A DNA stretch of 64,000 nucleotides, taken from assembly GCA_000002445.1 (NCBI GenBank), contig CM000208.1, forward strand, positions 3,232,001-3,296,000, given 5' to 3'. The notes below the pieces were generated by a model. It saw only the letters and a program-made list of their open reading frames with translations, had not been told where the DNA came from and did no database searches. Each line of letters begins with the position of its first letter. Positions within the stretch are counted from its first letter, which is position 1. This document shows positions 7,441-26,927 of the stretch, piece after piece. A program made the position numbers and the translations under genes. This DNA is from Trypanosoma brucei (Eukaryota).

Positions 7441-10400
7441 ATGCGCGGTTGACATGCTACTGCAGTGAGTCAGTGAGTAGCACAGAAATACACAAAAATT
7501 GTCAGTTTGATATAACGGCCTACGAAGTGAAACATTCAAAAAAGGTAGGACCGATACAGGACGCGATACCAGGTATATTCGCCTCTCAGAGGCAGTGCAA
7601 TAATGGGTAACATTTAAAAATAGAAAAAGAGATTATAGGGCAGAAGCACCAATAGTTTAGAAAACCTCGCGGCAACAAACTAGCAACATCACATCCTTTA
7701 CGTATAAGCGACGCCACTCCAATACCTAATACAAGCCTTCATTTCACAAGGGTGACCTCGGAGAAACTCCCACAGGTGTTGACGTGGAAGCACTAAGGGG
7801 AAAGGGAGGTGACACTACTTGAAACACAGACCCTCTCCATACCAGTGTACTGTCATCACACTTGTGCGTACCATTAAGCCAGAAACACATACGATAATTG
7901 CGTGACAGTATTAACGTTCTGATTGAGTGTGAAAGACGTAAATAAAACGGGCGATGCACTAATATCAGCAACAAATGAATGTTATCCGTCCTATACGCGA
8001 GGAAAATTTGCTACCGAAGCTGACGCAACACCAACGCCCAATAGCAGACCAAAGATCAACACCAGCCAGTATTATCCCTGGGATTGTTGAGCGCTAGCCC
8101 ACCCAGGCCAATGAGACAACACGCGTCCGCACCCTCACCCTTTTTTGACGCGGCAGTAAACACTGCCTTCCGCGGAAAAGCACAACTCCTGTACAATGTG
8201 GGTAACCACTTGAAGTGAAAACACCTACGCTGGGCAAGGGCTGGTGAAGCTCCACTCGCACTTCTACCACGTAGGAGTGCAACCCCGACAACCCCCTGAG
8301 GGGGCGTCGGGCACACCCGTGGCTCTACTGGCCACAGCATCAGAGGGACAGGGTCGACACCGCGACGAACCAGCCGACTCTGGTGAAGGTGCTCCGGGGA
8401 AGCAGGGTCACCTCCTGCACTTCTGTGGAATACGAGCTCCGACGGTGGAAGAGAAGAAAATCACTTTAAACACACAGGTCTCCAGCACATAACCCCTGAT
8501 AGCTACGCAAGCAAAGGTAGAGTGGGCGGTTTCAGCACCGAAAGCAGGGGTACCGCAGAGGGTCCAATGTGCTCAGGAGGGTTGGAAAGGACGATCACCG
8601 GGGCGACGCCCAGCAATGCAGGAACGGATGTTGGTTCAGGCCATGTGGCCCGAGAGCACCCTGCCCCTGCGAACCGCGAATCATAAAGAACATAGGTCGG
8701 CATGCCAATGGGAAAGTAAGAATCGGCAGTGCGGTGGCAGCCAGATGAAACAAAAAAATGAAGGAGGTGGAAACGGAGCGACACACCGCGGAGCACAGAG
8801 GACTGAAGCGTTATGGTGGACCACCCCGCGCCAAATCAACCGGATCACAGTCTGGTAGCTTTTGATGTCACCGTTGGCCGCCGTATTTGGGGAGCACACC
8901 AGGCTTCTGCACGGCATTATGTCAGGCAAAGAAAAGGGCGGCCCAGCCACGACGCCATGAACAGGCCCATGCAAAGATAAAGGAACGGCTCAGGACTTCG
9001 CCTAACTGTTTGAACAGTATCAACGGAGCAAAAAACCCAGTCATCCGAGGGGTGGCAGCACCGGGCGTCCCACGGGAAAGGAGCAGGACGATCTCCAGCA
9101 CAGGAGAGGAAAGTATCAAATCCAGAGAACGATGCAGAAAGGCGCCTCGGGGGGAGGGATGAGGGGAAAATGTCCCGGAAGAGAAGCCATAAAACACGTA
9201 CGAAGCAGCCTTCAATGGAAGGGAGGGCGGCGTCTTTCAGTTGCCTCCACCGTTGAGAAACAGCTGGGAACCACACGGCGTCTGTGTATGCCCAACGAGC
9301 TGGCTTAAGCACAGAGCCCATGACGAATGGGGCTGCACCAGTAAAAAGGCAACAGATGCAGATGTTAGAAAGGATGTGCCGAGAGAAACCGACGAAAACG
9401 CCTCTACTGAACAGCAGCGAGGATGCTAGACGCCAAAGAAGCGACGCCGAAATTGTTTCCGTACGACCGAGTCGATGTTGGCAGTGTGGGAACGACCTAC
9501 TGGATCGACAGCGGGTTAGGTTGACGTATGCTTCAAGGATTTAAAAAAATTGCTTGACTTCGTTTTGGCATGCGCAAAAACAATCAACCGAAGTCCACAA
9601 TTCAGAAAGGGACCGGGGAAGGGAAAGCGTGGGGGGACTATAGTACGGCCAAATGCACAAACGAGAGAACCTGGTGCGAAATGCCCACACACGCATCAAG
9701 TAACGCCGAACACTGCCATGCGCAAAACGTTTGGGCGACTGGCAGCCAGGAGTTTTTTTAACTTGATTGGTTGTCTGTTACGAAAAAGTAAAAAGCGCTA
9801 TCGCTTACGGCACTCACCGACAAACTGCACAGCTCAGTTTCTTGGAAACGTAATCACGAGCAGAACACCACAGTGAGTTGCCGTTGTGCGACCATAAACT
9901 TTTCATATGCGTTCGGTTCCGTGAACCATGGATTGGACTGCCCCCGCCCCTCGTGGAGCTCGCCGCCGATTCAAATACCTTCCAATCGATAAGCAAGTTT
10001 TTGTCACACATCACGACCATGTAGCGTTCCCCCTCGCAGGCTACAGGGCACCCGAAACATCACGGGTACGTTGCAAGAAGCACGGGCAGCGTGGTACAAA
10101 ATGTGCGGACCACACCCGTAACGAGACCGAAACCTGAAAACACCGGCACGCGCAGCCCACCCTCCGACAAAGTTGCTGGCTGCCTCTCCACCCAAAAATA
10201 AAAATAACGTGCACCAACTATCATGAAGATGTTGCGGCGGCAGGTGCCGGCTCTCATAGCACATATAATGAATGAGGTGGGAGGTACCCCTTCCGCTGCC
10301 CAATGGTGCCGAAGATGGGGAGGGACTTTCTGTTTGAGTTCCCCACCTACAGGAAGCAGTTGCGGCGGATGGCCAACAAGGGCCGCTTTCAAGTGCAGGA

Positions 10401-12908
10401 AGAAAAATAATTCCCCTCGTCACACTCCGGAGGTGATGGCATTGGTGACCGACCTTGTTCCACTCGGTGGTGGACGCTCTGCCGCCCTCGAGAAGAAAAT
10501 ATTAGAGTGCGTGCATGCGATTCGCTTTCGGTAAGCACAAGCGGCAACGGAACTGGATCACAAGGTCGAATAAGTTTGGTACCCCCGAAGGCGGTTGCAA
10601 CCTCAGAGTAGTTCCTTTTTGCTTCACTTTCTCCTTTTCCGTCGTTAGAGGGAAGGCGAACTTCCGCGACGGTTGGCGAGCAGAGTGGGGTCTACACTCA
10701 TTCCCATAGTGCTTCCCCGACGCGCTGACAACGATCTACGGTGACACGGTGCTGCGCTTGCCAACAAACTAGGGTAAAGGAACTGTGCTTGAAAAATGAT
10801 TGGCAACTAAAGGCTATTTTCCTAGAGGCCTCTTGCCGGAACTTGCGGGCGCGAAGTGGTGTGCAGTTGGCGGGATGAGCCCCCGGAAAAGGCGCACACT
10901 TCCAAGCATGTCGTCCTTTTAGGCGCCGGCCTTGCGACCACACCCTCAAACGTTGCTCCGCGTTGTGCTTGTGCGCGTTTCGGTGACCTTGGTGGTCGTG
11001 ATCTAAACAAAAGTGTACAATAAGAGTAAATTCTGGCGTATGTTGAGTGTGCCGCTTCCAGCACCTTTTTCATGCACTCTGGTGACGTTTTCCACCGCAT
11101 CGGGAGTGGGATGCGCAATGAAGGTGGCAACGGTGGAAAGCGCTGCGAAGAGGATTGGGGTAGAGGAAGTGCCAGAGGGATACGACGAAGGAATAAGAAA
11201 ATGAGGCTCTGCCTAGTTCAAGAAACGGACCCGACATGGGATGAAAAGTGTACAAGTGGTGGCGGGATAAAGGAACACGGGAACGCCGAAGATGACGGGC
11301 TGCACAGGGAAGGGAGGAGCAGATGGTGGGGAAACCGCATGAACTTATCACCCTTCAATTTTCACAGCCACGTGTCGGGCTCCGGTGGGGTTGGGAGGGG
11401 AAAGGGGGATGGGGAATAAATATCGCAGAATTACCGCACCCCTCGTCCTGGATGAATCCGGTTCCTTGGCCACGTTGGAACGTTGAACCGAATAGACCGT
11501 GTAAACTGCGCGCCATCAGGCGGCTCGAGGCTACGGCACTTTCAAACACAGCGAAAGTGGCGATCCCGAAGCAGACAAGGGATTTGTTCTGCAAGGAATA
11601 AAAGGAATTCCACACCTCGTTACACAAAGTGGCGTCTCCACCTTCCACACCCGGGGAAAGTAACTTTGGGGCGCCGGAGCATCACTGCTTTTGTGCTGCC
11701 TCAGTTCCACCCGCTTTCTCACAACGTCTCCGTGGTAAACATATTTCGTAACCCGCTATCCCTGCTGATGCTCACAGCTGCATCGGCCTCCAAAGGATGG
11801 AGGTTGGAATGGGCTGTTGTAAACTCTCCTCCGCCTGTAGGGTCCCAAATTCGGAAGGATTGAAGTCTCAGTGGTCTGACCCAACGTAATATCTGCATAT
11901 GCCCCCCTTCGGTGATTTAGCGGCACATTGGGTAGGAGAGACTGATTGGACGACTACAAGCTCCAGCCAACGAATTCGATTGGATTTGGTGGCCGTAAGG
12001 GCTCTAATTGCCTGGAACAATTGCTTTAGAGAGCTTTTTGGGAAAATGCCTCCCTAACCCCAACGACATCAAACTACGCACGGGGAGGGGGAAACTATTT
12101 ACGGCGAAAGCGGGCTCGAGAGTCACTGGCTTTGCGAATAGCAGTTCACACCTGCCCTGCGGATGTGCATGATTTGGTGGGAAAGGTGGAAAGTTGGAAA
12201 TGCTGCCACTATGCGGTTCGAGGGTCAGGAGGATCCGCTGTCATATGATCAAGTGATGTGTCTGAGAAGGAGGGAGAAGAGGAAGGGGATGCCAGAAAGG
12301 CCGATTCGCCGCGGCCCACGCGCTGCAACATGAGAACTCTTTGCTTAAACAGCGTGGGACCCGCAGTGAGAAAGTATGGTGGGAGGGTGGGCTTTGGTTT
12401 TTCCAACTTCCTGCGAAGAGATCGACCGTTACAACTTTGTGTCAATCCATCTGGTGCCGACCTACTCTTATTAACATTTCCGCCGTTTCGGTTTGTCCTC
12501 ACTACTTCTGATGAGAGAACAACCGCAAAGGGCATTGACTACGCTCCAAATGAAAGATAATTAAAAAAGAGAGCACAGGGAGAATGAAATGCAGCGACGG
12601 GCACTGTGCGGAACAACCGCCACTGCCGCATTCGTACCAATATATGCGTAATTTGAGCAATGCTACTCCAGTGGAAGGATGAAGGGAGGGGAGAAGGTTT
12701 GTTCCCCACCACCTCCACCGGTCCGTTACTCAAACACAACGTCCCGAGGACAGCTATGTTTGAAAGTAAGAAAATGTCGATAAATGGGGTTAGATGGATC
12801 TTAACAACACATAAAGAAATAAATTACGGGGGAATAGGAACTGGAGCATTAGTCCCAGCCAAATACCCCCATATCGTCACCCATTTCCTTCATCCCCCGC
12901 AGTACTTC

Positions 12909-14057
12909 TCATACCCGAGGTGGAATGAGTGACTCGGAGGGGCCGAGATACTTCACCCCACACCCGACAGGGGACTGCAGTAACATCTCAAACGGCTTCT
13001 TCGGGTGGTCAATCAGCTTCTTATATTCGTCGGGAAGCGATACAACCTTGACTTTCTCAAGTAACTCGCGGTCTCCGAAGAAAAACTTCTCGAATGGTGT
13101 TGGGAAGTGCTCCATGAGCATAGCCACGGCTTCAGGAAGGTCCTCCTTAAGAACAAACAAGAAACAGTTCGCCCCGGCATCGAAGGTGTAAGCCAGTGCT
13201 GTGCGGCCCTTCTTCGCATTGTAGGCTTTCACGAGGCGGATCATCGCGTAGCTGTCCTCCGTCGCATACGTAATCTTCGGTTCGGTGGTCGCGCATATCT
13301 CCTGCAGGTCGTCCGATTCAAGCATTGCAATCTCTGCAAAGGTTGCGAAATCCCTCGCCTTTATAGCTCTCGAGGCAATTTTCATGCGCTCCGGTACGGT
13401 TTCTGAGATGCGCTTCTTCATCAAAGGCGACGTTTTGAGGGACTGCTGCATGCCCTTGGTGCTGGAGACATCCTTCTGTGCCCCTTTAAGGACAGCGCAC
13501 ATCACCTGTATCTCGGGCCAATGCGTTTCGTCAACAAATTGTGTGGCCACACAGTCGCTACCATCAGGTTTCTCCCCCTTGTTCCATATAACGAAACCCC
13601 CAAAGGCACTGCGGCAGGCGCTGCCAGATCCAAGGCGAGCAAGCATTGAGACGTTAGTGGTGGACTTGAAAGCACGGATGAGCGCCGCCGACATGGCGCA
13701 GTAGCCGCTAGCGGAAGAGGCCATCCCAGCGGCAGTTGGGAAGTTGTTCTCCGATACGATGTTCACCTTTTTGTTTTTCAGGTCTTCGGGGCATGTGCTC
13801 CTGAGATGAAGGAGCATCGACTGGACCCGTGGAGTCTTTCCCACATCAACCTCGGTGCCGTTCAGTCGCAACGTGTCTGTCTCGATGTCGTCCCTGAGTT
13901 CCACGGAGGTTTTGCTACGAAACGGGCTTGCGGAGAGCGTGATGCTAAAAGAGTCATTTGTGGGGAGTATCAGCGTCTCTCCACCCTCACGCTTACCCCA
14001 GTACTTGATAAAAGCGATGTTGATGGGTGCCTCGACGGTGACACACTGGTCGGACAT
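12909..14057 (-). CDS. MVD: Diphosphomevalonate (mevalonate-5-pyrophosphate) decarboxylase, GHMP kinase family
   Basis: Translation contains the MVD N-terminal signature VEAPINIAFIKYWGKR and the GHMP ATP-binding loop PTAAGMASSASGYCAMSAA. The likely true start is the ATG at 14057..14055 (MSDQCVTVEAP...). The ORF-track start at 14165 adds a 36-aa hydrophobic non-conserved extension. Confidence 0.9.
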   Translation of the reverse strand: MSDQCVTVEAPINIAFIKYWGKREGGETLILPTNDSFSITLSASPFRSKTSVELRDDIETDTLRLNGTEVDVGKTPRVQSMLLHLRSTCPEDLKNKKVNIVSENNFPTAAGMASSASGYCAMSAALIRAFKSTTNVSMLARLGSGSACRSAFGGFVIWNKGEKPDGSDCVATQFVDETHWPEIQVMCAVLKGAQKDVSSTKGMQQSLKTSPLMKKRISETVPERMKIASRAIKARDFATFAEIAMLESDDLQEICATTEPKITYATEDSYAMIRLVKAYNAKKGRTALAYTFDAGANCFLFVLKEDLPEAVAMLMEHFPTPFEKFFFGDRELLEKVKVVSLPDEYKKLIDHPKKPFEMLLQSPVGCGVKYLGPSESLIPPRV

Positions 14058-14259
14058 GGCGCCGCTTTGCCACGCAGCAATTAATTCTTCCCTCGCTTTA
14101 CCTACGCTGAGGTCAGTAAGAAAGGGGAAGTAAGTACTGAGGAGAAAAAGTGATTGAGAAAACAATTTAAAAGCTACAAGCTCCGTTCACATTACGATTT
14201 CCCCCCTCTTTTTGCGGATAGGAAACGCCACGCCTGGGTCGAATCTGCGACCCGCAATG

Positions 14260-15285
14260 CTAGGCCACACTCCGGCAGGAACGCAAGATGGTGGCCACCC
14301 TGTTATGTGCGGCGAAGGAGGCTTGTGGTACACTTGGCGGGGTCAGCGGAGCCACCGAGGCCTCAGCCTCCCAACCAAATCCTACAAGAGCCGCTAACGC
14401 ATCTTCGGCATCGGCGTGCTTCTCCGTGCTTTTTGACACCATGCGCCGACCTGTCAGCAGGGCCAACGCAAAGTCGGCATCGTCAGGATGGAACAACTCC
14501 ACGACTGTAGCGAATGAGCCACCGTTGGAAGCAAAACTGAAAGCGTAATCCGCAACGGGACCAACGTGTCTGGTGAGTTTCGATAGCAGCCCCGCGGGGT
14601 CGCAAGTGGACAGCGGCACCGGCACCGCGTTTCGTATCCGTGCGCTCGCTAGTGGGGTATTGCCCTGCACAAAGCCTTCACTAGATGGGCCGCTAACGTC
14701 GGTGGCTGCCGTTGTTTCACCACGAAGCAGTGCCGTCAACTCTCCATCCGTCTCACGAATGCCTTCCGTCGTCCTCTCCAACGATTCTTGCGCGCGGCAG
14801 TACGACTCCTGGAGCTCCAACAGTCTTTGCAGCAACTCCCCGCCCTCAGCCGCCTGCTCGCTAGTTTCCAACATTTCCGGAATGGCACGTACAAGCAGCT
14901 CATCCATTTGCAAGTCGCGGGGCATCAGGTGGTTCTTTGGGAGATTTGGATTCATTTCCAACTTAGTTTTCTCCTCTTGTACGCCCCCCGCGGCGCCCTC
15001 TAGAGTAGCCACTGCAGCCGTTTGTTTCTTGAACACGTTGGAGTGTATTTCGATGGCATGATTCTTCAGCCGTTCGCCATCAAGGTGGTCTACCGCCAGC
15101 CGCGCCGCTGAACTCTGGTGGAAACGAACCCAGTAAAATGACCGTTGCCGGGAAGCATCGTATCGCATTTTCAACTCATCAATGTCCCCAATAATACGCA
15201 ACCATTCGTGCACATCTTCAGCGAGTACCGCCGAGAGGTCATCAACAAAGACGTGCACAACCCTTGCGTCACCTCGATCGGCCAT
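14260..15285 (-). CDS. Conserved hypothetical protein (possible N-terminal RRM-like fold, C-terminal coiled-coil/helical region)
   Basis: 342-aa ORF from the ATG at 15285..15283 (MADRGDARVVHVFVDD...). The segment VVHVFVDDLS...SFYWVRFHQSSAARLAVDHLDGERLKNHAIEIH resembles a beta-alpha-beta RRM-like module. No stronger homology is recognisable by eye. The track ORF is extended 38 codons upstream. Confidence 0.5.
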   Translation of the reverse strand: MADRGDARVVHVFVDDLSAVLAEDVHEWLRIIGDIDELKMRYDASRQRSFYWVRFHQSSAARLAVDHLDGERLKNHAIEIHSNVFKKQTAAVATLEGAAGGVQEEKTKLEMNPNLPKNHLMPRDLQMDELLVRAIPEMLETSEQAAEGGELLQRLLELQESYCRAQESLERTTEGIRETDGELTALLRGETTAATDVSGPSSEGFVQGNTPLASARIRNAVPVPLSTCDPAGLLSKLTRHVGPVADYAFSFASNGGSFATVVELFHPDDADFALALLTGRRMVSKSTEKHADAEDALAALVGFGWEAEASVAPLTPPSVPQASFAAHNRVATILRSCRSVA

Positions 15286-15637
15286 TGCTTTCAGGAATAG
15301 GGAAGGAGAGGGATTGTCGCGCACACGGGCAGGGAGAGGGGCAACAGTTGGTTCACAGAAAGATGTACAGAACAACGGAGGCCCGCAGTACGTGCTCAAA
15401 CTGGCATAGGGACCATGCGTTTAAGAACACCAAATTGAAATAAAGGAAACAAAAAAGTATAATTAGGTGTAAAGAGGGAGTAGGACAAAAGGGGAAACAT
15501 AGGTGCTATCCCCTGGTGGTGGTGACCCTAGCAACGAAGAACGAGCCACAGTTATTCCACAGTTAATGTTTACAACAAATCAAACGCATTTATTTTGTAT
15601 ATAACATTGTCTATGTATTTTCCTTTACGAATTATTT

Positions 15638-17220
15638 CTACGAATTAGCCTTTTCAGCCTCCTCAGTTTTTTTGTTTCCCCCCGTTTCGCTACCTTCGCT
15701 GTCCGCATTGGAGTGAGGTGCACTCGCCTCACGCAACATTATGCAGTAGACGGCAAGCCAGCACGGAATTGCAAGACCAAGGAATGCGAATATCACAAGA
15801 AGAGCATTACGTAGCTGATACTTGCTGACGCAGTGTCCATCCGTGCTATTACCCGTTTTGTTTATCCACTTGCATAAATTGTCAATGTCGTTTCTGCACT
15901 GGGTGTTATTACCATGCGCCGGACATCCTCTCGAGAAGGCATTGTCAGAGAGATAACCAGCAAGTGTTGGTGACGGGAAATCGCCTAGCAAGTGAATAAG
16001 AAGAACGGAGTAACTCACGGCATATGCCCTTTGATCCCATGGGACCACTGTTAGTATTGCTGAGTTAATGGGTGCTGTGACTGCAAAGAGAGTAAACACC
16101 GAAACCACCAGAAGCGATGTAAACAGCCAAGTAACTTCCATGAACAATGCAGCAAGTCCTACGGGGACGCTGACGGCAATCATGACGACGCAAAAAAGCT
16201 GACACTTCATAGTGCCTGAAGAGCCAAGGCTCCCTCCAAGTTTGTCCACTACAACGCCTCCGACGATGGATCCAATGATACCGGTAAGTGCTGTGGTACC
16301 GCCCATGATCATTGATGCCGTCATGTTGGTAAGCTCCATCGGCCCATCAACTAGAAAAGGTATTGACCATACCGAGAGGCCGCCGATTACAAAGCAGTAC
16401 ATTGCGTAACCGAAGACAACAAGGAGATACCGTGCGTTCGTGAAAATTGAAAGGCAGCCTTATGTACCGGGAGGTATTCGTTGTCGCGTTTCTGGCGCAT
16501 GTTGTATCGTTTGGGGAGGAATACGATAAGTAGCAAAATCGGAATGGCGACGATCGCAAGGGAGAGAAAGGTTACACGCCAGCCCTCCAGACCCCCTACG
16601 GAACCATACGTACCCATCACACCACCGGCAGCCATACCAACCGCTGTCCCGACGGGGATCATAGAGTAGAACGTGCCTATCCACGATGTCCGTGACTCGG
16701 GTGGTGCAATGGCATCAATCACCGTCACTGTGAAACCAACAAAGGCGGCCTCTCCCACCCCATCAAAGATTCTGCAGGCGAGAAGGAACTCATACGAGCG
16801 TGCCAGGCCGGTTCCAACTAAAGAAGCAACCCATACAATGATGCCTACGGCGATGATCCACTTGGATTGTACGACACCTCCGAGCCCAGCGAACAGGGGA
16901 CAGGCGACCATGAAGCCAATCATGAAGCCTGAGAAAAGCAAGCCGGCCTTCGTATCCGTCAGAACATTCGATGACCCCGCGATGGTCGGATCACCCTTAA
17001 TGACGACTAAACAACCGGCAATGGCTCCGCGGTCGTAATACGTGACGAAGTTGAGAAGCGTGAAGATGGAAAGAACAATGCGAGGTGTCATGAGCCGCCC
17101 CCACCGTGATACAGGTTCCTCGGCAGTAGGATCAACCTCCTCAGGTGTAGTTTGCACTTCTTCATGTTCGTTCGTTTCGTGGGGATCGTTCCTTTGCGTT
17201 TTATCTTCGGAAGCCATCAT
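15638..17220 (-). CDS. Major facilitator superfamily (MFS) transporter, about 510 aa, interrupted by a 1-nt frameshift (possible pseudogene or sequencing indel)
   Basis: Two overlapping minus ORFs, 16387..17220 and 15638..16402. Each encodes about six hydrophobic helices with MFS-type glycine-rich TM motifs (GFMIGFMVACPLFAGLGG; GIIGSIVGGVVVDKLGG). The first ends in an out-of-frame tail (KAAFQFSRTHGISLLSSVTQCTAL*). The second frame is open back to a TAA and reads ...FTNARYLLVVFGYAMYCFVIGG. Adding one T to the T4 run (plus A4 at 16442-16445) fuses them into a continuous 12-TM protein with a basic central loop (KRYNMRQKRDNEYLP). Confidence 0.6.
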
Positions 17221-17494
17221 TCACTACTGTAGTCGAAAAAAGAGGCGGGGTATGGGAAGCTTTGTCCGCTGCTTAGCGGTAAGCGTAGCAATGGATTGAA
17301 ACAAATGAGAGGGCGAGGTGGGTGTTGTGTGAAAGGCGTGGCGCTTTGTTTTCACTTTCTGTTAATAAGCGGTTTGCACAAATGAATCTAAGTGTATTGT
17401 TGATCAACAACTAAAGGAAATAAATAAGTCACGAACGAATAACATCAAGGGAAGCTCCCATGAACTTGAAAGAATTATCTGTCAGTTGGGCAGG

Positions 17495-20332
17495 TCAGCA
17501 GCCTGTGATCCCTCTCAGCGCATGTAGGGCAGAGACAACACGGTGTGTTGGAGGGAGAATGTCAACCAGAGCCCAGGCAGCACGCGCCCACTCACCCTGC
17601 TTTTCTGTATTGTTGATGTGAAGATAGAAGACGGAATTGTTCCACGCCTCGACCGTAAAATATTCCAAAAGGAGTAGGGCGAAAGCGGAGGAGTTATTGG
17701 CGGTTACGCCCCTTTCCCCAACCGCACCGTAGCGCCCAAGAAAGGTGCCGACGGTAATACCCATCACGGGAAGAGAAAGGAAACTCATGAGGTGCTGCAC
17801 TACGCACATTTGCTCTTTTCTGTCGGATCCCAAAGTGAAGGCTTTGTACAGGCAAGAGAGGTTCTTTGTAAGGGTTTCAGCAACCGCTTCCTCTTCACCT
17901 GCCCGAACCTCAGTGGAAGCCGCAACTCTTTCCATTAAGTCGAGCGAGGCTTTCGCAAACAGCCCCATGGCGAATTCTCGTAAATAGGAACATTCTGTTG
18001 TGACACGGGATGCCTCGAACGTGGCGGCCTCTGCCAGCGCCTCGTAAACATTATACGGCACAGGGATAGTGGAAAGCTCCCTCACTATCTCATCCATTTC
18101 CTGCGGTGTTTCGATCGATGGGCCACGCAAATGCCACTCAGACTTACTCAGCAAAAATGTCACACGACATTCCGCGGTATAAGTTGTTGAGATAAGATCC
18201 CTACACGCGTTAAGGTGTTTCTCAAGATCCGCCAAGTCAATCAGTGGATTACCTGTTGAAAACAACCGAAACTCGTCCTCCAACATGCACAAGATGGCAG
18301 CCAACAACGGTGACTGTGTGCCCGCTTCCCTAGGCGACGGATCTTGCTCTGCAATGCAAGCGGCTGCTCGAAATAAGGCAATACTTGTGGCGCTAGCTTC
18401 GAGTGTGAACTCTGAACCTAGTAAAAGGAAAGCTTGCGTCCACCACATTACTTCGTCATGTGTTAGTTTCAGCGTGGCAGAGCCCTCCGAGAGAATGTTT
18501 TGAATCCGCTGCGTGAGTTTGTACAAGTCGTCATCAGAGTGCGCGCAACTTCTATTGATAGCCGTGGTGACATACACCCGTAGAACCTCAAGTTCTGTCC
18601 TGACATCTGCGAAGGGTACTGGCGAGAGGAGAGCTTGCAAGGCGGCCAACGAGGCAACGTTGAGGCAGTTCCGCTTTAGGCAGCAGTTGATAGCAGTGCA
18701 CAAGGCTGGGATTACCAACTCCGAGGGTTCACATGCCACCAGTTGGTGTATTTCCTCTTTCATGCATGTCTCGCTTCCTTCCATCACAAATATTTTGAAT
18801 AACAACGCGTGGGCGAAGACACAACGTGGTTTTCGCTCTGTGTACCTAAGCAGAATGTCCTTTGGTTTTGCCAGCATGTTCACTTGCTGTCCTTGCTCCA
18901 CAGACTCCACATATTTTGTGCATAGGTGAAGCTGCAGAGCATTGATCTCAGAGTCGCTTGCACAATCTGCAAGGCGGATCGCTGCCTCAAGACTTTCCAC
19001 TGCCTCTCCGTGGCTAAATTCTGCGTTGTCGCTAAGTTCCCAGAGCCATTTAAAGCAATAGCGTCGATATTTCGGATCCTCGAAGTCCAAACACTCATTT
19101 CGCATTATTTGCAGGGCGGAACGACAAGACTCGGTATCTTTACTGTGAAGGAGGAGCTGAACAAGTCGAAACGTGACACCCTCGGCAGCCGAAGTGCCCT
19201 TGGTCCTGTTCTGTAGTAACTGCATGCTTTCGACTGAACCGCTTTCCATTGTTGTGAACAGCTTCTGAAAGTCAAAACAGACAGCCACCGCGTCATCGAC
19301 GGTGACGTCGAGTCTCTGGACATATTCGCGGAGTTGAACAGACGCCTCCTTTTCCATACCTGCTGCTGCGGTAGCTTTTAGACGCAATAAAGCGGATGTA
19401 TTGGATTGCAGTGCGGAGTCTGCCTCCACCGCCCAACGAACCGCTTCTGACGCGTTCCCTTCCCGGAGCCACGATAACGCCATCTGCTCTAGCGTTGCCC
19501 CACGAAGCATTGGCAGGCGGCAGGGTGCGTCACTTCCTCCATTCTCTTTGAGGTAATTTTGAACGTTAATCGAAGACATAAGCATGTCGCGTATGAAACA
19601 CTCATTTGGAGGCTCCACCTCAGCACTGCCTACCGTGAAAACGAAGTGGAAGAATGTCTCGAGCAAAGTGCGGTGAAGCGTGTTGTCTCGCAACAGCATT
19701 TGCGCAAGCCTTTCACATGACTGTGACGACTCAAACAGGTGCCCGAGGTTCCACATCACCTCCATCTTTGTGTATTCAAATTCCCAACTCAAATTACGGT
19801 GTTTGAGGTGTGGCAACCGTTGTACTACTCCGGGTGGTATGTGGGGAACGATGGTTTCAACAGCGGCAAGAAGTGCCTTAGAACCCTCTGGCATATGATT
19901 CAGAGAGAGGTCACGCGACGTCTTCAGACACATTAGTATGCATTGCTCTGCTTCCCTTGGATGGTGAGTAAAGTAACTGTGTCGAACACTCTCCTCCGAG
20001 TACACAAAATTACCAAGAAGGAACGACCTAGTCGCAAACTCACGCAACGCTACCTTCAGTCTTCGCTCATGCTCTCTACTGTGGTCCGTGCACCGCATTG
20101 TGACGTTCCAACATGCGCTTCCGAGAAGTCGCAGTTCTTCCAGCACCTTCACTGGGAGCGGAGAATCACTGCTTTGATTTGCGGCTGCCCCCTCAACCGC
20201 ACTTGTGGCGATTTTAATATCTGATAGCATATCCTCACAATTGGCGAGGTCCTCACCTTTCCCATGGGTGGTGAATCGATGAAGCACACCATCGAGTTTG
20301 GAGCACAACTGCTTTGTGTCTATCATCTGCGC
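17495..20332 (-). CDS. Large conserved hypothetical protein (about 945 aa, predominantly alpha-helical)
   Basis: Long minus ORF. The track start at 20578 passes through a pyrimidine-rich hydrophobic stretch (FLFLGCYTYCVFLLLL) that looks like the upstream polypyrimidine region. The first plausible ATG after it is at 20332..20330 (MIDTKQLCSKLDG...). I recognise no domain. Confidence 0.55.
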   Translation of the reverse strand, partial: AQMIDTKQLCSKLDGVLHRFTTHGKGEDLANCEDMLSDIKIATSAVEGAAANQSSDSPLPVKVLEELRLLGSACWNVTMRCTDHSREHERRLKVALREFATRSFLLGNFVYSEESVRHSYFTHHPREAEQCILMCLKTSRDLSLNHMPEGSKALLAAVETIVPHIPPGVVQRLPHLKHRNLSWEFEYTKMEVMWNLGHLFESSQSCERLAQMLLRDNTLHRTLLETFFHFVFTVGSAEVEPPNECFIRDMLMSSINVQNYLKENGGSDAPCRLPMLRGATLEQMALSWLREGNASEAVRWAVEADSALQSNTSALLRLKATAAAGMEKEASVQLREYVQRLDVTVDDAVAVCFDFQKLFTTMESGSVESMQLLQNRTKGTSAAEGVTFRLVQLLLHSKDTESCRSALQIMRNECLDFEDPKYRRYCFKWLWELSDNAEFSHGEAVESLEAAIRLADCASDSEINALQLHLCTKYVESVEQGQQVNMLAKPKDILLRYTERKPRCVFAHALLFKIFVMEGSETCMKEEIHQLVACEPSELVIPALCTAINCCLKRNCLNVASLAALQALLSPVPFADVRTELEVLRVYVTTAINRSCAHSDDDLYKLTQRIQNILSEGSATLKLTHDEVMWWTQAFLLLGSEFTLEASATSIALFRAAACIAEQDPSPREAGTQSPLLAAILCMLEDEFRLFSTGNPLIDLADLEKHLNACRDLISTTYTAECRVTFLLSKSEWHLRGPSIETPQEMDEIVRELSTIPVPYNVYEALAEAATFEASRVTTECSYLREFAMGLFAKASLDLMERVAASTEVRAGEEEAVAETLTKNLSCLYKAFTLGSDRKEQMCVVQHLMSFLSLPVMGITVGTFLGRYGAVGERGVTANNSSAFALLLLEYFTVEAWNNSVFYLHINNTEKQGEWARAAWALVDILPPTHRVVSALHALRGITGC

Positions 20333-20749
20333 AACACGAAATGTGCTTCTCCCGCACCTTCCCTTTTTGAGGTGCAAAGTGTCCCGACACGATAATAATA
20401 ACAAAAAAACACAGTACGTATAGCAACCAAGGAAGAGAAAAAGAAGAGGAAGAACAAATGTATCTCCATCTTTGCACCTCACAATGTTGGGATGAACCAC
20501 CGAATTAAATAGTGCATATAACAAAAAACACCGAGACAAGAACATGAGGGGGGGGGGGAAAAACAGCCGAGCGCACAAACGACCACGCCACTGCCACCTC
20601 TATGGAGCAGTTGTTCACACGGTCGCATTCCGAACGCATATGTAAGTAATTCACTGCATTCATCTGAATATAAGAGGGATGGGTAATGTCGTCGATAAGG
20701 TTTGTTCACGTTGAAGAATGTCTTCATCTTACATTTCGATTATTTGATA

Positions 20750-21226
20750 CTACAATGTCTTCTGAGCGGCGATCGCCTCTTTTGCAGCTGCCAGTTCTTC
20801 TTCAGCTAACAGTTCGTTCTCTCGCTCCCTAACCATCTGCAAAACTTGTTTTGACACGCGGTGTTCACGTACCTTGCGCTCAAGGACGGGAGTTGTCGGT
20901 CCCACCGTGTAGGCGTGATAGACAAAGGACAACCATATGTTACCGAACATCACAGCAGAGAAGAAAACCATTGTCATGACGAATGTCTTCCACAACTGCA
21001 GTTGGGTCTTCCGCCAGATCCATCGTACGCGGTTTGTACGAAAGGGTTTCGTCAGACGGCCAATTTTGTTCATCACCAACATACGAAAGAACATGGAGCG
21101 CCGGGCAAGTGTGTCCTTAACTGGTCCAGTGCCAGGTCCCCACATTCCAGGCTGGTCGGTGTACTTCGATGGTGTAGGGGCGAGATGCCCACGATTCATG
21201 GCGCGCCGCTGGCACCGACTAAACAT
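20750..21226 (-). CDS. Small hypothetical membrane protein (single predicted TM helix, C-terminal coiled-coil)
   Basis: 158-aa ORF with a true ATG (plus 21224-21226 = cat). One strongly hydrophobic segment FVMTMVFFSAVMFGNIWLSFVYHAY is flanked by basic residues. The charged helical C-terminus is ELLAEEELAAAKEAIAAQKTL. Family unknown. Confidence 0.45.
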   Translation of the reverse strand: MFSRCQRRAMNRGHLAPTPSKYTDQPGMWGPGTGPVKDTLARRSMFFRMLVMNKIGRLTKPFRTNRVRWIWRKTQLQLWKTFVMTMVFFSAVMFGNIWLSFVYHAYTVGPTTPVLERKVREHRVSKQVLQMVRERENELLAEEELAAAKEAIAAQKTL

Positions 21227-21907
21227 AACGAAAACTGTTCAGGTGCTATCTGTAATAGGTATCAACCCAAGTGGCTGTCAGAGGAACGAGTCGTTTACAC
21301 TCAGTGAAGAGAAGAAGGTTTAAGGTACAAGTTGCATTGCGTAAGGTGCAGGTGCCAAACTAGGGGAACACAACTGAGCAGATGTATGAAAGAATAATGT
21401 AATTGAAGTGCCACAGACTCAGTAAACTAAAGGTTCCCGTGGTCGGAATATACTGAAGCACAAAAGGCTACATTTGGAAGAGAGGAGGAAGGTTACATGC
21501 ATACATATATGATAACCAGTACAAGAGCGTGGCTCGCCACCAAACCATAGAATTTACAACAACGAAGGACCACAAACAGTTCCCACTGGCGCACGAGCAA
21601 TAAGACAAGGTAGCAAAAAAAAAAAGAAGGCGAGCGCATGGTTTGCCTCATGGACTGAATTCGTCGCAGCGCACGTGGTGTATGAAATAAGAAAGCATGA
21701 GCGATACAATTGCAATACGAGTCAAGATAGAGACCGCTTTATGCAGACCCGACGTGAGACTACTTAATTATGTTTGACCTCTGTTTCCTCATAGCCCGCA
21801 CCTCCCACTGTACTTTGTTCATGTGCACCACATTGCGTCACAACAATATCCGTTATAACTACATCGTTTTTATTTCATCCAAATTGATGAGCTCAGTCAT
21901 AATGTCC

Positions 21908-24106
21908 CTAAAACCGCCTTCGCGGAGGAGCTTTGGGTTTGTTCACAGTGTTTGCACAGCGTGGAATGTGTCGCTCCGCGACGTCCGGGGCAAACTTCCT
22001 CCCGCAGTGTGGACAGGGCGTGTAATGGCTGTTCTCACTATAGGTTGGGGGTGGAAGATTGCGCAAATTGCCGCCAGACTTCAGCACCTTGTCCACCATT
22101 CGCGCCTCCTTCAAGGATCGTCTGAATGCTTCGCTTTCGGCACGCCAATCTTTTTTCGGTGGCGCTGGGGCACTGGCGGTAGTATCGATCTTTTTGGCAA
22201 AACTCATGGCTTCGGTGCCTGCAAGACGCTGAGCCCGCATGTTGAACACCTTTCGCTGCTTCTGCGATGCGCATACGCGCTCGTGCCGCTGCAGTGCCTC
22301 TGGGGCAAACTTTCTGCCGCACTTCTGGCACTCCAGGCGCTCCCCAACTTCTGCCGCCTCGTAGTCAGTTGCCGTATAGGATTCCTGCGTGCATTTCTTC
22401 GGGGAAGAGGGTGAGAGATTGCCACGCCCCCTTGAGGGTACTTTGGGGCCACCGCGGTTATCCTCACTGCCTCCTATTTTAGTGTTTGCTTGCCTGAACC
22501 CTCCCGCTGAGTGTCGCTTGTCATCATTTGTTGTTGATGGCGGCGCCGTCGACAAAGCTCTCTGAGGAGCAGAAACTTCCTTAACCCCATGCGGAGTTAA
22601 CGTACATTCTGCTGCCGGAGGACCCTCACTAACGTCTTCGATAGTTTTCCTCTCAAGGACTTCGCCACATTCTTCGCAGTACTTCGCCGAGAGCTCCTCA
22701 ACAGTTTCACCACACCCTTTACAATACATAACTTCTTTGGTGGTTTTAGCGGGGGTTCGCGCTCCACCTACGGCAAGAGGCTCCGCGTCACCTAGGGCTC
22801 CTCCGCAGTTGTCACAGAAGTTACTATCAGCATCACATATAGCTCTACATGCTGGACAAGTCAGTACCCGCACAGTCGGTGCATTAACATTCTCAGCTCC
22901 TTCGCCCCGTTCGTCCGCTGATGCACCATTAACTGGCACTCCACACGTGCCGCAGAACCTAGATCCCTGGGGTATCGACTCTCCACATTGCGCACACGGT
23001 TTCGCAAGGTTCTTGGACGCCAGGTTAGCGCCGCATTCCCTGCAGTACTTTGCATTTTTATCATATTCAACGGCACTACACCGCGGGCACTCGCGCCCAT
23101 CCGCATCGACCGTTCCACCCTTCGGCAAACGTTTTAACTTTGGATTAATGTTAGAAAGTCTTCTGTTATGGTCTGTACCTATCGCAGAACCCCGCGATTG
23201 TGATCGTTCGGCGGTATCTGTAGCACCCCCCACATGGCTCCCCGTATTCGGTTGAGGGACCTTTCCTGTGGGAGGGCGAGATTGGGGTGCACTCGGTGCT
23301 GGGGGCGGTCTTGCCGTAGAACCGGGCTTGCAGGAGCGGAGATGCACCACCAAGCGATCCGCAAGAAACTTTCGACCGCAGTTGGGGCAAGGTTCCAAGT
23401 TTCTAACAAACTCAGCAAATTGTGCATCATTGTGCTCCTCAACATTACCACAACCCTCTCCCTTCCAGTTAAAGGAATCTGGATGCTTTGGTGGCTTGCC
23501 GCGTGTCTCCACATCTGCCGCCTCCCATTGCGCTAACTTCTTTGCGTAACATTGGGGCACGTGAATTCCGATAGAACTCGTCCCAAACTGCTGACCACAA
23601 AGGTAACATATTGGAAGCTGGGGCTTGGCTCCGGGGCCCATAGAAGCGGTCCGTTTCCCCTGTCCTCCCCGCTGACTATCCCTTGAGGGTGACGCGCCCC
23701 TACCGCTGGAAGCCAAGCTTCTGGTGCTTCCCGCTCTACTGCGGTTGGCACTTGCAGATGGGCAGCGACTGTCACCCTTACAACCGCGTAGGTGAACCGG
23801 AAGTCGATCGGGAAGGAACTTCCGTCCGCATCTATCACAAGGTACGAGATTGTTCGTAAATTCTTGGAACTGCTCATCCATCAGTTTCTCCGCACTCACT
23901 CCCGATCCCTGCCAGTTGACAGTGTCGGGGTGTTTGGGTCGCTTTCCGCGCGTGGCGGGGTCTGCCACTTCCCACTGCGCTACCTTCTTTGCGTAACACT
24001 GTGGTATGTGGATGCCTATTGAGGCGCTACCGAACTGTTGACCACATAGATAGCAGACACGCATCTGCGGCCGAGGCGCCGGCCCCTTGCTACGGGACGA
24101 CAGCAT
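21908..24106 (-). CDS. Multi-zinc-finger protein: repeated C2HC-type fingers (zf-C2HC_2 / ZC2HC1-like) plus four zinc-ribbon CxxC...CxxC modules
   Basis: 732-aa ORF with a true ATG. Repeated CYLCGQQFG[ST]xSIGIH[IV]PQC and CxxCGRKFxxDRLxVHLRxC motifs match C2HC fingers, and two more occur at the C-terminus (CQKCGRKFAPEALQRHERVC, CPHCGRKFAPDVAERHIPRC). The centre has four CxxC-x(8-12)-CxxCG zinc ribbons (CPRCSAVEYDKNAKYCRECGANL etc.). An approximately 150-aa N-terminal module is tandemly duplicated (see finding). Confidence 0.75.
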   Translation of the reverse strand: MLSSRSKGPAPRPQMRVCYLCGQQFGSASIGIHIPQCYAKKVAQWEVADPATRGKRPKHPDTVNWQGSGVSAEKLMDEQFQEFTNNLVPCDRCGRKFLPDRLPVHLRGCKGDSRCPSASANRSRAGSTRSLASSGRGASPSRDSQRGGQGKRTASMGPGAKPQLPICYLCGQQFGTSSIGIHVPQCYAKKLAQWEAADVETRGKPPKHPDSFNWKGEGCGNVEEHNDAQFAEFVRNLEPCPNCGRKFLADRLVVHLRSCKPGSTARPPPAPSAPQSRPPTGKVPQPNTGSHVGGATDTAERSQSRGSAIGTDHNRRLSNINPKLKRLPKGGTVDADGRECPRCSAVEYDKNAKYCRECGANLASKNLAKPCAQCGESIPQGSRFCGTCGVPVNGASADERGEGAENVNAPTVRVLTCPACRAICDADSNFCDNCGGALGDAEPLAVGGARTPAKTTKEVMYCKGCGETVEELSAKYCEECGEVLERKTIEDVSEGPPAAECTLTPHGVKEVSAPQRALSTAPPSTTNDDKRHSAGGFRQANTKIGGSEDNRGGPKVPSRGRGNLSPSSPKKCTQESYTATDYEAAEVGERLECQKCGRKFAPEALQRHERVCASQKQRKVFNMRAQRLAGTEAMSFAKKIDTTASAPAPPKKDWRAESEAFRRSLKEARMVDKVLKSGGNLRNLPPPTYSENSHYTPCPHCGRKFAPDVAERHIPRCANTVNKPKAPPRRRF

Positions 24107-24774
24107 CCCCTGACAATCTAAATAATATACACGTGATGCGCCGCAAAACTAAACTGTGTTCACGCGGGTTAGTCCGCAGTTGCACGCACTGCTATAGAAC
24201 AAAGGGAGGTGTTATGCAGAGTTCAAATGGAAAAAAAAAGGCGCAGTACACATTTTCTTTAGCATATGTAACTGTTTTGGTTTATAAAGTCTAGTAAAGA
24301 GAAACCACTGCACAAACTGTTGCCAATTGAACCCGATAAGTACAGCGCCACAAACAGTCTACTGATGCGGGACAGTGAATGAAAGGAGATATTGAGTACA
24401 ATCCAGACGCTACTTAGCAGTGGACGGACTTAAGAATGGCACTAACTTTCAACGGAACAAAAAAAGTCTTGTTGAAGTGGAACGCTCCTTTTTCCGATCC
24501 AACACTGATGGCTTCCCCCTCCTTCCTCCGAGTGGCACTGCAACCCCGCCTAAAACAATGGGGGTTAGAAAAAGGGAATAAAGGTGCTATTTCCCCTACC
24601 GACTCCAATAGCACCTAACTAAACGATTTTCGCTATCCCTAACTTATCTTTACAATTCCCAAGCATTCACCGCTACAAAAGGACAAAATCCCCTACGCTA
24701 CCTACAAGTGGGGTGAAGAGGTATCTCCAGACCGAAATGCTTGCTGAATGGCAACGCTGTCCTAACGACAACTA

Positions 24775-26232: not shown

Positions 26233-26246
26233 GCCGCCTCAATGCC

Positions 26247-26262
26247 AAAAAAAAAAAAAAAA
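26247..26262 (-). promoter_or_regulatory. T16 homopolymer on the coding strand plus AG, 8 nt upstream of the NDUFA9-like ATG (trans-splice signal)
   Basis: Plus-strand A16 at 26247-26262. Minus strand reads TTTTTTTTTTTTTTTTGGCATTGAGGCGGC-ATG. Confidence 0.45.
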
Positions 26263-26927
26263 CAGCGCCGCTTGTACTTCCACCCCTGCGTATGTGTCCG
26301 TGTACGTGCGCTCCGCCACGTTGCCTAACTATACTGTCCCGCGAGGTTCGTACCAGAAGCAAAGAAGGGATAATTTGCGATGATACAAAGAGAAAGTTAA
26401 CAGCTGACGGCGTGGAGGAATGCTTCGCCACAAAGGCGCGACAAACATCCGTATGTCCGTTGACGTTGAAATACTTAGGCTCATCTTCTTCAACGGCGAT
26501 TCGTTGTCGTCCCCCTCTGACTCCAACACACCCATCTTCTCAGAATTGGTGCATGCGAGTTTATTGCTCCTCCCATGGCCTTCCCATGTTCAATTATTCA
26601 CAAAGAATTTATGACCTTAGTGTTTTCTAGGTTCATACCGGTAAGAGATTAGATGCATAGTGTTCCCGCTTCCTTTCACTTTTTCCTCCTCGACGTATCT
26701 TCAAATAGGGTCAGTAGTGTATGCTGCTGTATGATTAACAGGACATGCTGTCACGTAAAATAGAATGAGAACACGACGCCTACCACTTTCCCAGACGAAC
26801 TACCTCCCCTTTCATTGTTGCTGTTCAGAGGTGGTAAACGAAAAGAGTGATGAGTGTAGAGCCGATGTGCATGAGCAACAAGATCAGACCCAGAGAAATG
26901 TGGCAGCAACCCGCCGGCCTCGCCATC

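What the first reader, a model, noticed from the sequence alone, without database searches (positions are those of the whole stretch)
15638..17220. MFS transporter split by a single-nucleotide frameshift at a homopolymer
Two adjacent minus-strand ORFs (16387..17220 and 15638..16402, overlapping by 16 nt) encode the N- and C-terminal six-helix halves of one MFS transporter. I translated the junction by hand. The upstream frame decays into KAAFQFSRTHGISLLSSVTQCTAL*. The downstream frame is open back to a TAA and reads ...FTNARYLLVVFGYAMYCFVIGG. Adding one T to the T4 run (plus-strand aaaa at 16442-16445) yields a continuous ...NEYLPVHKAAFQFFTNARYLLVVFGYAMYCF... protein of about 510 aa. Either this strain carries a recently inactivated transporter gene, or the assembly has a homopolymer indel. 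Other explanations such as programmed frameshifting are far less likely.
Basis: seen in the sequence. Interest (0 to 1): 0.5.

Follow-up and report, generated by a model that had tools for sequence, protein, structure and literature searches.

The report
One-base break in trypanosome transporter gene
A Trypanosoma brucei membrane-transporter gene is split in two by one missing base in this reference sequence; every other copy I could read is intact, so it is an ordinary assembly error or strain-specific dead allele, not new biology.

Summary
ORFs 16387..17220(-) and 15638..16402(-) are the two halves of one 527-aa Spinster-like MFS transporter. Adding one base restores the frame.

The window is T. 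b. brucei TREU927 chromosome 10. The C-terminal ORF is exactly GenBank XP_827842.1, "transporter, putative".

Six other T. brucei-group copies, including the syntenic gene in T. b. gambiense and T. b. equiperdum IVM-t1, are in frame. None has a T5/A5 run. They read CTTCAATTGTTT ("A type") or TTTCACATTTTC ("B type"). The window reads TTTCAATTTTC.

So this is not a homopolymer-length change. The missing base lies in the few bases where the window switches from A-type to B-type paralogue sequence. The two types differ by compensating one-base indels, so a left-A/right-B hybrid is one base short.

The gene sits in a 7.6-kb duplicated block that also broke two other assemblies at or beside this gene. 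TREU927 appears to lack an annotated second copy.

I lean towards a chimeric consensus of collapsed paralogues or haplotypes (0.5). A real gene-conversion-derived null allele is the main rival (0.4). Programmed frameshifting is rejected. Interest is low.

The parts
16387..17220 (-). N-terminal ORF of 277 aa. Residues 1 to about 258 are authentic MFS sequence (TM1-TM6, the central loop and the start of the pre-TM7 helix). The last 18 or so residues (SRTHGISLLSSVTQCTAL) are an out-of-frame tail.
   Evidence: Pfam MFS_1 85.3 bits over profile positions 3-186 of 347. This exact protein is not in the 15-billion-sequence collection.
15638..16402 (-). C-terminal ORF of 254 aa, identical to GenBank EAN78730.1 / XP_827842.1 "transporter, putative" of T. 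b. brucei TREU927. Its ATG corresponds to Met274 of the full protein, in the middle of TM7.
   Evidence: Exact match. TM7 is helix 263-292 in the AF2 model of the orthologue.
16439..16459 (-). The junction. Minus strand reads GCTGCC TTTCAATTTTCACG. GCTGCC (16458-16453) is A/W type. From 16452 onward the sequence is B type. This stretch is 14 nt where both types have 15 nt. The T4 run is at 16446-16443.
   Evidence: The exact window junction is found in none of 12 fetched loci. The B-type junction is in 4 independent copies plus OVI left of its gap. The A-type junction is in 2 copies plus OVI right of its gap.
16346..16545 (-). B-type tract inside an otherwise W/A-type gene, interrupted by the 4-nt A-type patch at 16456-16453.
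   Evidence: At the 26 fixed W-versus-B differences the window reads BBBBBB WWW B ? BBBBBBBBB WWWWWW.
10277..17899 (-). A 7.6-kb segmentally duplicated block: the last ~135 codons of the ZIP4 homologue, then MFS, RBP27 and mevalonate-diphosphate decarboxylase. It is present at a second (B) locus beside SSNA1/SRP19/pyruvate kinase in other strains.
   Evidence: blastn. Gene content.
17495..20326 (-). Upstream neighbour, a ZIP4/SPO22-homologue gene (EAN78731). Its unique 5' part marks this as the W locus.
14260..15285 (-). Downstream neighbour RBP27 (EAN78729, locus tag Tb10.05.0020).
12909..14057 (-). Mevalonate-diphosphate decarboxylase (EAN78728).

Best explanation
The two ORFs are one gene for a 12-helix Spinster-like MFS transporter on T. 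brucei TREU927 chromosome 10. The reading frame is broken by a net loss of one base in the short helix just before TM7.

The loss lies in the few bases where this copy changes from the A/W-type variant to the B-type paralogue variant:
- A/W type: ...GCTGCC CTTCA-ATTGTTT...
- B type: ...GCCACT TTTCACATT-TTC...

In a gapped alignment the two in-frame variants differ by compensating one-base indels. A sequence that follows one template on the left and the other on the right is therefore exactly one base short. That is what the window shows (TTTCAATTTTC).

I think the switching was most likely done by the assembly. The consensus was probably built from reads of collapsed paralogues and/or the two haplotypes of this diploid strain. 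On this reading the gene is intact in the organism and encodes a normal 527-aa transporter.

Shown: the gene identity, its fold, the in-frame state of all other copies, and the mosaic junction. Inferred: that the assembler, rather than the cell, made the hybrid.
For: 1. All six other resolvable copies are in frame. They are otherwise 98-99% identical at DNA level and have no further lesion. They include the syntenic gene downstream of ZIP4 in PacBio-assembled T. b. equiperdum IVM-t1, and the T. b. gambiense copy I take to be syntenic.
2. All 26 fixed W/B differences in the 7.6-kb repeat lie in this gene. The window flips from W to B type 4 nt from the missing base.
3. The window's 14-nt junction equals the A/B gapped alignment with the gap taken at both indel columns.
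4. Other assemblies fail at or next to this gene. T. equiperdum OVI has an N10 gap at the same bases, with B type on its left and A type on its right. The T. b. gambiense ZIP4 locus ends in a 739-N gap where the MFS gene should start, and the MFS contig is placed about 100 kb away after a 100-N gap. Jackson et al. 2010 (PMC2854126) report a 110-kb "inversion" at chromosome 10 3250-3350 kb and note that rearrangements often coincide with gaps.
5. TREU927 protein accessions run EAN78778 (MVD-B) then EAN78779 (the 139-aa ZIP4 fragment), with no RBP27-B or MFS-B between them. No full-length TREU927 protein of this family exists in the database. The two assemblies with only one MFS locus (TREU927, OVI) have mixed A/B sequence there. 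The two that resolve the loci separately have pure A type, in frame, at the W locus.
6. Base rate: ICORN correction turned 98 frameshifted L. infantum gene models into intact ORFs (PMC3245030).
7. The family is conserved, with no length variation at this spot, from Trypanosoma to Leishmania.
Against: - TREU927 is a finished Sanger-era reference. Single-base errors outside long homopolymers are rare there.
- No reads could be inspected.
- Position 16452 (T) does not fit a single clean A-left/B-right switch. Two switches, or an unseen TREU927 A-type allele with T at that site, are needed.
- Gene conversion between the copies is evidently frequent in vivo. For example, the IVM-t1 W copy is B-like at 16835-16824, and the IVM-t1 B copies carry the W-type C-terminal tail. 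A real mosaic is therefore equally natural.
- The absence of MFS-B and RBP27-B from TREU927 is inferred only from accession order.
Confidence: 0.5

Rival explanations
1. The same hybrid junction is real. A gene-conversion or allelic-recombination event in the TREU927 lineage, between A-type and B-type templates paired with two one-base bulges, left a one-base deficit. This created a strain-specific or haplotype-specific null allele of a duplicated, and so dispensable, transporter gene. It would be a very young pseudogene.
For: - The frameshift is in the deposited finished sequence, and the annotators kept only the 254-aa half.
- The missing base is not in a homopolymer, so it is not a typical sequencing error.
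- All copies are patchworks of each other, which shows active conversion.
- A redundant paralogue exists in related strains.
- Frameshifting indels between T. brucei-group genomes are reported to be numerous (PMC4288722).
Against: - There is no second lesion and no sign of decay anywhere in 1,584 nt.
- The junction was found in none of the 12 fetched loci.
- If TREU927 truly lacks MFS-B, this strain would have no intact copy of a gene conserved across trypanosomatids.
- The site coincides with assembly failures in other genomes.
Confidence: 0.4
2. One reading: a simple homopolymer-length change (T5 to T4), made either by sequencing or by replication slippage, in an allele that read CAATTTTTC (..FQFF..).
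For: - Adding a T restores the frame.
- An ungapped A-left/B-right crossover would give T5, which could then slip to T4.
Against: - No T5 allele exists in any fetched copy.
- The B type natively has T4.
- Phe at that residue is seen in none of the 14 aligned homologues, which have L, I or V.
- It needs two events where a single gapped template switch suffices.
- T4-T5 runs are not error-prone in Sanger data (general knowledge).
Confidence: 0.07
3. The split is functional. Either the frame is restored on the mRNA or ribosome (a -1 slip on UUUU, or U insertion), or the two halves are made as separate polypeptides that assemble, as split LacY can.
For: - A -1 slip at CAA UUU|U would give FQFF.
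- Split MFS halves can complement each other in E. coli (general knowledge).
Against: - There is no X XXY YYZ heptamer.
- The downstream RNA fold has z = -1.04.
- All orthologues and paralogues are in frame.
- The C-terminal ORF starts in the middle of TM7.
- The halves are not separately conserved anywhere.
- U-insertion editing is confined to the mitochondrion in kinetoplastids (general knowledge).
Confidence: 0.02

Closest known systems
T. b. gambiense DAL972 CBH16628.1 / XP_011778892.1, "major facilitator superfamily protein (MFS), putative" (527 aa), and the unannotated syntenic ORF in T. b. equiperdum IVM-t1 (CM010681.1)
   Same: Same gene. The repaired window protein is 98% identical over its full length. 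The same downstream neighbours RBP27 and MVD are present, and in IVM-t1 the same upstream ZIP4 gene.
   Different: Those copies are in frame and pure A type at the junction (CTTCAATTGTTT). The window has a B-type tract at 16545-16346 and is one base short.
B-locus paralogues: T. b. gambiense CBH16544.1, T. b. equiperdum RHW69064.1 and RHW69079.1, and Logan contig ERR7929162_2209
   Same: 93-98% identical 527-aa proteins within a 7.6-kb duplicated block. The window matches their sequence from 16452 to 16346 apart from one missing C.
   Different: They lie at a different locus, downstream of SSNA1 and a 139-aa ZIP4 fragment. The gambiense and Logan copies have a different C-terminal tail. All are in frame.
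Spinster family MFS transporters (human SPNS1, human SPNS2, Hyphomonas HnSpns)
   Same: They are the best sequence hits among solved structures: SPNS1 9boi E = 1.5e-24, SPNS2 1e-19, HnSpns 6e8j 1e-8. They are also the best structural hits (Foldseek E about 1e-14, TM-score 0.77-0.82 normalised to target length). The TM1 D-R pair and the TM4 R...E are conserved.
   Different: Only 21-23% identity. The kinetoplastid proteins carry a Cys-rich extracellular beta-hairpin insert between TM11 and TM12, which gives weak OATP Pfam hits. The motif-A Asp/Arg in the TM2-TM3 loop is not conserved. The substrate is unknown.
Frameshifted gene models in Sanger-era trypanosomatid references that were later repaired (ICORN correction of Leishmania genomes)
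   Same: A single internal frameshift in an otherwise perfect, conserved gene (PMC3245030).
   Different: Here the deficit is tied to a paralogue or haplotype switch rather than a simple miscall, and it has not been shown to be an error.

Membership tests
Major facilitator superfamily (Pfam MFS_1, PF07690) | Profile match above the curated threshold that spans both six-helix halves | tested here: met
   The repaired 527-aa protein scores 99.7 bits against a cut-off of 33.4, residues 55-407, profile positions 3-337 of 347. The N-terminal half alone covers profile positions 3-186.
Major facilitator superfamily (Pfam MFS_1, PF07690) | Twelve transmembrane helices as two six-helix bundles joined by a cytoplasmic loop | tested here: met
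   AF2 model of the 98%-identical orthologue P0001: pLDDT 88.8, pTM 0.87. TM1-6 span residues 46-233, the loop is 234-251, a short helix is 252-261, and TM7-12 span 263-500. The frameshift maps to about residues 258-260.
Major facilitator superfamily (Pfam MFS_1, PF07690) | Motif A (G-x-x-x-D-R/K-x-G-R-R/K) in the TM2-TM3 loop. This motif is common but not obligatory, and I recall it from general knowledge. | tested here: inconclusive
   The query reads AGLGGVVQSKW where SPNS1 reads GYLGDRYNRKY. The Gly and Lys are kept; the Asp and Arg are not.
Spinster (SPNS) subfamily of MFS | Closest relatives by sequence and by fold are Spinster proteins | tested here: met
   phmmer against PDB sequences ranks SPNS1, SPNS2 and HnSpns on top. 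In the Foldseek search of PDB the top 16 hits are all SPNS2, SPNS1 or HnSpns. JGI names two related hits "Spinster family".
Spinster (SPNS) subfamily of MFS | Conserved charged residues: a TM1 Asp-Arg pair and a TM4 Arg...Glu. The residue roles are recalled from the HnSpns and SPNS2 structure papers. | tested here: met
   D63 and R64 are invariant, and R150 and E157 are at least 90% conserved, in 47 homologues. They align to the SPNS1 sequences YMDRFTVAG and RGLVGVGEA.
Spinster (SPNS) subfamily of MFS | Lysolipid or sphingosine-1-phosphate transport activity | not testable with these tools
   No functional data were found. A full-text search for Spinster with T. brucei returned nothing.
Genuine (unitary) pseudogene | ORF disrupted relative to intact orthologues | tested here: met
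Genuine (unitary) pseudogene | Lesion confirmed in independent reads or assemblies of the same strain | not testable with these tools
   TREU927 is not in the gene-position index. No reads were available.
Genuine (unitary) pseudogene | Further degenerative changes or relaxed constraint | tested here: not met
   There is no other stop or indel. Against the T. b. gambiense A/W copy there are 14 codons with an amino-acid change and 9 with a silent change, most of them inside the converted tract.
Programmed -1 ribosomal frameshift | Slippery heptamer, a downstream structure, and conservation of the shift in orthologues | tested here: not met
   The sequence CAA UUU UCA is not X XXY YYZ. The downstream fold has z = -1.04. 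All other copies and species are in frame.
Assembly artefact (collapsed paralogue or haplotype consensus) | The lesion coincides with a switch between paralogue variants inside a near-identical repeat, and other assemblies break there | tested here: met
Assembly artefact (collapsed paralogue or haplotype consensus) | Excess read depth, or reads that carry the missing base | not testable with these tools
   No read data. The only indirect hint is that RBP27-B and MFS-B are missing from the TREU927 accession series.

The most novel reading that the evidence does not exclude
The frameshift is real and homozygous, and TREU927 really lacks the B-locus copy, as its accession order suggests. This fully tsetse-transmissible reference strain would then be a natural knockout of a Spinster-like transporter conserved across all trypanosomatids, which would show the transporter to be dispensable through the whole life cycle. 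A still less likely alternative is that the frame is rescued by a -1 slip on the U run.
Probability: 0.07. Interest if true: 0.35.

Novelty: already known. Interest (0 to 1): 0.1.

Why it matters
It matters mainly as an annotation and quality issue. XP_827842.1 (254 aa, "transporter, putative") is a fragment that starts in the middle of TM7. It should not be used as a gene model, an RNAi or knockout target, or an orthology seed.

The true product is a 527-aa Spinster-like MFS transporter. The case also shows how two in-frame paralogue or allele variants with compensating indels can yield a frameshift whenever a template switch falls between the indels. The switch may be made by a cell or by an assembler.

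It flags the 7.6-kb MFS-RBP27-MVD duplication on chromosome 10 as a place where several T. brucei-group assemblies are unreliable. It opens no larger biological question.

Tried and rejected
1. The 254-aa T. equiperdum OVI protein (SCU69297.1) looked like independent confirmation of the split. I rejected it: the OVI scaffold has an N10 gap at the junction, with two different in-frame variants on either side.
2. I tried to fetch TREU927's own loci (the W copy and the B locus) by exact protein look-up. TREU927 is not in the gene-position index.
3. I looked for Logan read-assembly contigs that cover the junction in a TREU927-like strain. I found only a B-type contig (ERR7929162) and a 1.4-kb MVD contig.
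4. I searched the literature for the gene ID, pseudogene status or a functional study. Nothing specific turned up. Useful by-products were the locus tag Tb10.05.0020 for the neighbouring RBP27 gene, the chromosome 10 110-kb inversion note and the ICORN base rate.
5. Programmed frameshift: no slippery site, and no significant downstream structure.
6. A second MFS copy inside the 64-kb window: none found by tblastn or self-blastn.
7. I treated the T. b. gambiense A copy as a possible third locus. It is more simply the W-locus contig mis-scaffolded across gaps.

Full report
**Observation.** The two minus-strand ORFs are at the stated coordinates and overlap by 16 nt. Frame 0 ends ...LPVHKAAFQFSRTHGISLLSSVTQCTAL*. 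The second frame is open from a TAA (minus strand, 16462-16460) and reads *GCLSIFTNARYLLVVFGYAMYCFVIGG.... Inserting one T into the run gives one uninterrupted ORF of 527 aa, not about 510. The repaired protein matches Pfam MFS_1 at 99.7 bits (cut-off 33.4) across residues 55-407, so the match crosses the junction. The N-terminal ORF alone covers only the first half of the profile.

**What the sequence is.**
- The C-terminal ORF is letter-for-letter GenBank EAN78730.1 / XP_827842.1, "transporter, putative", of Trypanosoma brucei brucei TREU927. It lies on a 4,054,025-bp record, which I take to be chromosome 10 from the Tb10 locus tags.
- The neighbours are EAN78728 (mevalonate-diphosphate decarboxylase), EAN78729 (RBP27, locus tag Tb10.05.0020) and EAN78731 (a ZIP4/SPO22 homologue).
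- The N-terminal 277-aa product is in no database. The public annotation therefore carries only a fragment.

**What the protein is.**
- The repaired protein is 98% identical over its full length to a 527-aa T. b. gambiense protein. It has full-length homologues at 40-63% identity in T. congolense, T. vivax, T. cruzi, Leishmania and other kinetoplastids.
- Among solved structures the best sequence matches are human SPNS1 (E = 1.5e-24), SPNS2 (1e-19) and the bacterial Spinster homologue HnSpns (1e-8).
- An AlphaFold2 model of the orthologue is confident (pLDDT 88.8, pTM 0.87). It shows TM1-6 (residues 46-233), a loop (234-251), a short helix (252-261), TM7-12 (263-500) and a Cys-rich beta-hairpin insert between TM11 and TM12.
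- Its top 16 Foldseek hits in the PDB are all SPNS2, SPNS1 or HnSpns.
- The TM1 D63-R64 pair is invariant across 47 homologues, and R150 and E157 in TM4 are at least 90% conserved.
- It is therefore a Spinster-like MFS transporter of unknown substrate.
- The frame breaks at about residues 258-260, in the short helix just before TM7. The annotated 254-aa protein starts at Met274, in the middle of TM7. It cannot be an independent functional unit.

**Other copies.** The gene lies in a 7.6-kb block (window 10277-17899) made of the ZIP4 3' end, MFS, RBP27 and MVD. In other strains the block is duplicated at a second "B" locus next to SSNA1/SRP19/pyruvate kinase. I recovered six other copies:

| Copy | Source |
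|---|---|
| A (taken as W locus) | T. b. gambiense (CBH16628) |
| B locus | T. b. gambiense (CBH16544) |
| B locus, two copies | T. b. equiperdum IVM-t1 |
| B type | Logan read-assembly contig ERR7929162 |
| Syntenic W locus | T. b. equiperdum IVM-t1 (PacBio) |

- The IVM-t1 W locus is colinear with window 28327..9495 at 99.1% identity. Its MFS ORF is intact at 527 aa although it is not annotated.
- All six copies are in frame.
- At the junction, A/W-type copies read GCTGCC CTTCAATTGTTT ACG. B-type copies read GCCACT TTTCACATTTTC ACG. The window reads GCTGCC TTTCAATTTTC ACG. That exact sequence occurs in none of the 12 fetched loci.
- No copy has a five-base run, and the B type natively has T4.
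- Across 14 homologues from Trypanosoma to Leishmania there is no length variation between the conserved His and Asn. Restoring the C (FHIF) or the G (FQLF) fits, while adding a T (FQFF) does not.

**The mosaic.**
- All 26 positions that consistently distinguish W from B copies in the 7.6-kb repeat lie inside this gene (16545-15734).
- At those positions the window reads BBBBBB WWW B ? BBBBBBBBB WWWWWW. The '?' is the missing base, 4 nt from the W-to-B switch between 16453 and 16452.
- Aligned with gaps, the two variants differ by compensating one-base indels (CA-ATTG versus CACATT-). Any sequence that follows the A type up to the first indel and the B type past the second is exactly one base short. 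The window's 14-nt junction is that hybrid.
- The only misfit is 16452 (T, B-like). It needs either a second switch or a TREU927 A-type allele with T at that site.
- A template switch of this kind can be made by a cell, through gene conversion with bulged heteroduplex repair. It can equally be made by an assembler building a consensus from mixed paralogue or haplotype reads.

**Assembly context.**
- The T. equiperdum OVI scaffold has an N10 gap at these bases, with B type to its left and A type to its right. That gap is why OVI also has a "254-aa" gene model, so OVI does not confirm the frameshift.
- In T. b. gambiense the ZIP4 locus ends in a 739-N gap where the MFS gene should begin. The MFS-RBP27-MVD contig sits about 100 kb away after a 100-N gap.
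- This coincides with the 110-kb "inversion" at chromosome 10 3250-3350 kb described by Jackson et al. 2010, who caution that such rearrangements often coincide with gaps (PMC2854126).
- In TREU927 the B-locus accessions run EAN78778 (MVD-B) directly to EAN78779 (the 139-aa ZIP4 fragment). There is no second RBP27 and no full-length MFS protein from TREU927 in the database.
- The two assemblies that contain only one MFS locus (TREU927, OVI) show mixed A/B sequence there. The two that resolve W and B separately show pure A type, in frame, at W.
- For Sanger-era trypanosomatid references, short-read correction converted 98 frameshifted L. infantum models into intact ORFs (PMC3245030).

**Weighing the explanations.**
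- I put a chimeric consensus, meaning the gene is intact in the organism, at 0.5.
- I put a real, very recent, strain-specific or haplotype-specific null allele made by gene conversion at 0.4.
- For the real allele: TREU927 is a finished sequence, the missing base is not in a homopolymer, conversion between copies is evidently active in vivo, and a duplicated gene can be lost.
- Against the real allele: there is no other lesion in 1,584 nt, the junction is unique to this record, and the strain would have no intact copy of a pan-trypanosomatid gene if the B copy is truly absent.
- I give a simple T5-to-T4 slip 0.07.
- I give programmed frameshifting, mRNA repair or functional split halves 0.02. 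There is no slippery heptamer, the downstream fold has z = -1.04, every orthologue is in frame, and the C-terminal half begins inside TM7.
- Read pile-ups or a ZIP4-anchored PCR would settle the question.

**Novelty and interest.** This is a public, annotated reference locus. The phenomenon, a single frameshift in one copy of a duplicated conserved gene, is ordinary whichever explanation is right. The practical value is in correcting a misleading gene model and flagging an unreliable repeat region. Interest is 0.1.

Noticed in passing
window 10277-17899; loci L002, L005, L006: A 7.6-kb segmental duplication (ZIP4 3' fragment, MFS, RBP27, MVD) is present at a second locus beside SSNA1/SRP19/pyruvate kinase. 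In T. b. equiperdum IVM-t1 there are two B-type units about 15 kb apart. Outside the MFS gene the W and B copies show no fixed differences, so they appear homogenised. Inside the MFS gene there are 26 fixed differences.
   Followed up: partly
L008 13024-13762 and L001 3580-3680 (T. b. gambiense FN554973.1): In gambiense the ZIP4 locus ends in a 739-N gap where the MFS gene should start. The contig with MFS, RBP27 and MVD lies about 100 kb away after a 100-N gap. The published 110-kb chromosome 10 "inversion" (3250-3350 kb) may therefore be a scaffolding artefact at this repeat.
   Followed up: partly
TREU927 accessions EAN78778/EAN78779 (outside the window): MVD-B is followed directly by the 139-aa ZIP4 fragment in the accession series. 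TREU927 therefore has no annotated RBP27-B or MFS-B, and no full-length protein of this MFS family at all. Either a real 3-kb deletion or a collapsed assembly could explain this.
   Followed up: partly
L009 11107-12690 (T. b. equiperdum IVM-t1 CM010681.1): An intact 527-aa MFS ORF at the syntenic locus has no gene call in that assembly's annotation.
   Followed up: yes
L003 4912-4921 (T. equiperdum OVI CZPT02001192.1): An N10 scaffold gap with about 86 bp duplicated on either side, in two paralogue versions. This produces a spurious 254-aa MFS gene model (SCU69297.1).
   Followed up: yes
window 17495-20326 (-): The upstream gene is a homologue of the meiotic protein ZIP4/SPO22 (UniRef name). 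It is 943-1016 aa depending on the start codon chosen, and conserved at about 50% identity across Trypanosoma.
   Followed up: no
window 15779-15812: Three substitutions private to the window lie within 34 bp (15812 A, 15787 G giving Ala479 instead of Ser, and 15779 T). All other copies, including OVI, agree with one another there. This may be another small conversion patch or haplotype switch.
   Followed up: no
MFS residues about 429-468 (window about 15820-15935): Kinetoplastid Spinster-like proteins carry a Cys-rich extracellular beta-hairpin insert between TM11 and TM12, which gives weak Pfam OATP hits. The motif-A Asp/Arg in the TM2-TM3 loop is not conserved.
   Followed up: partly
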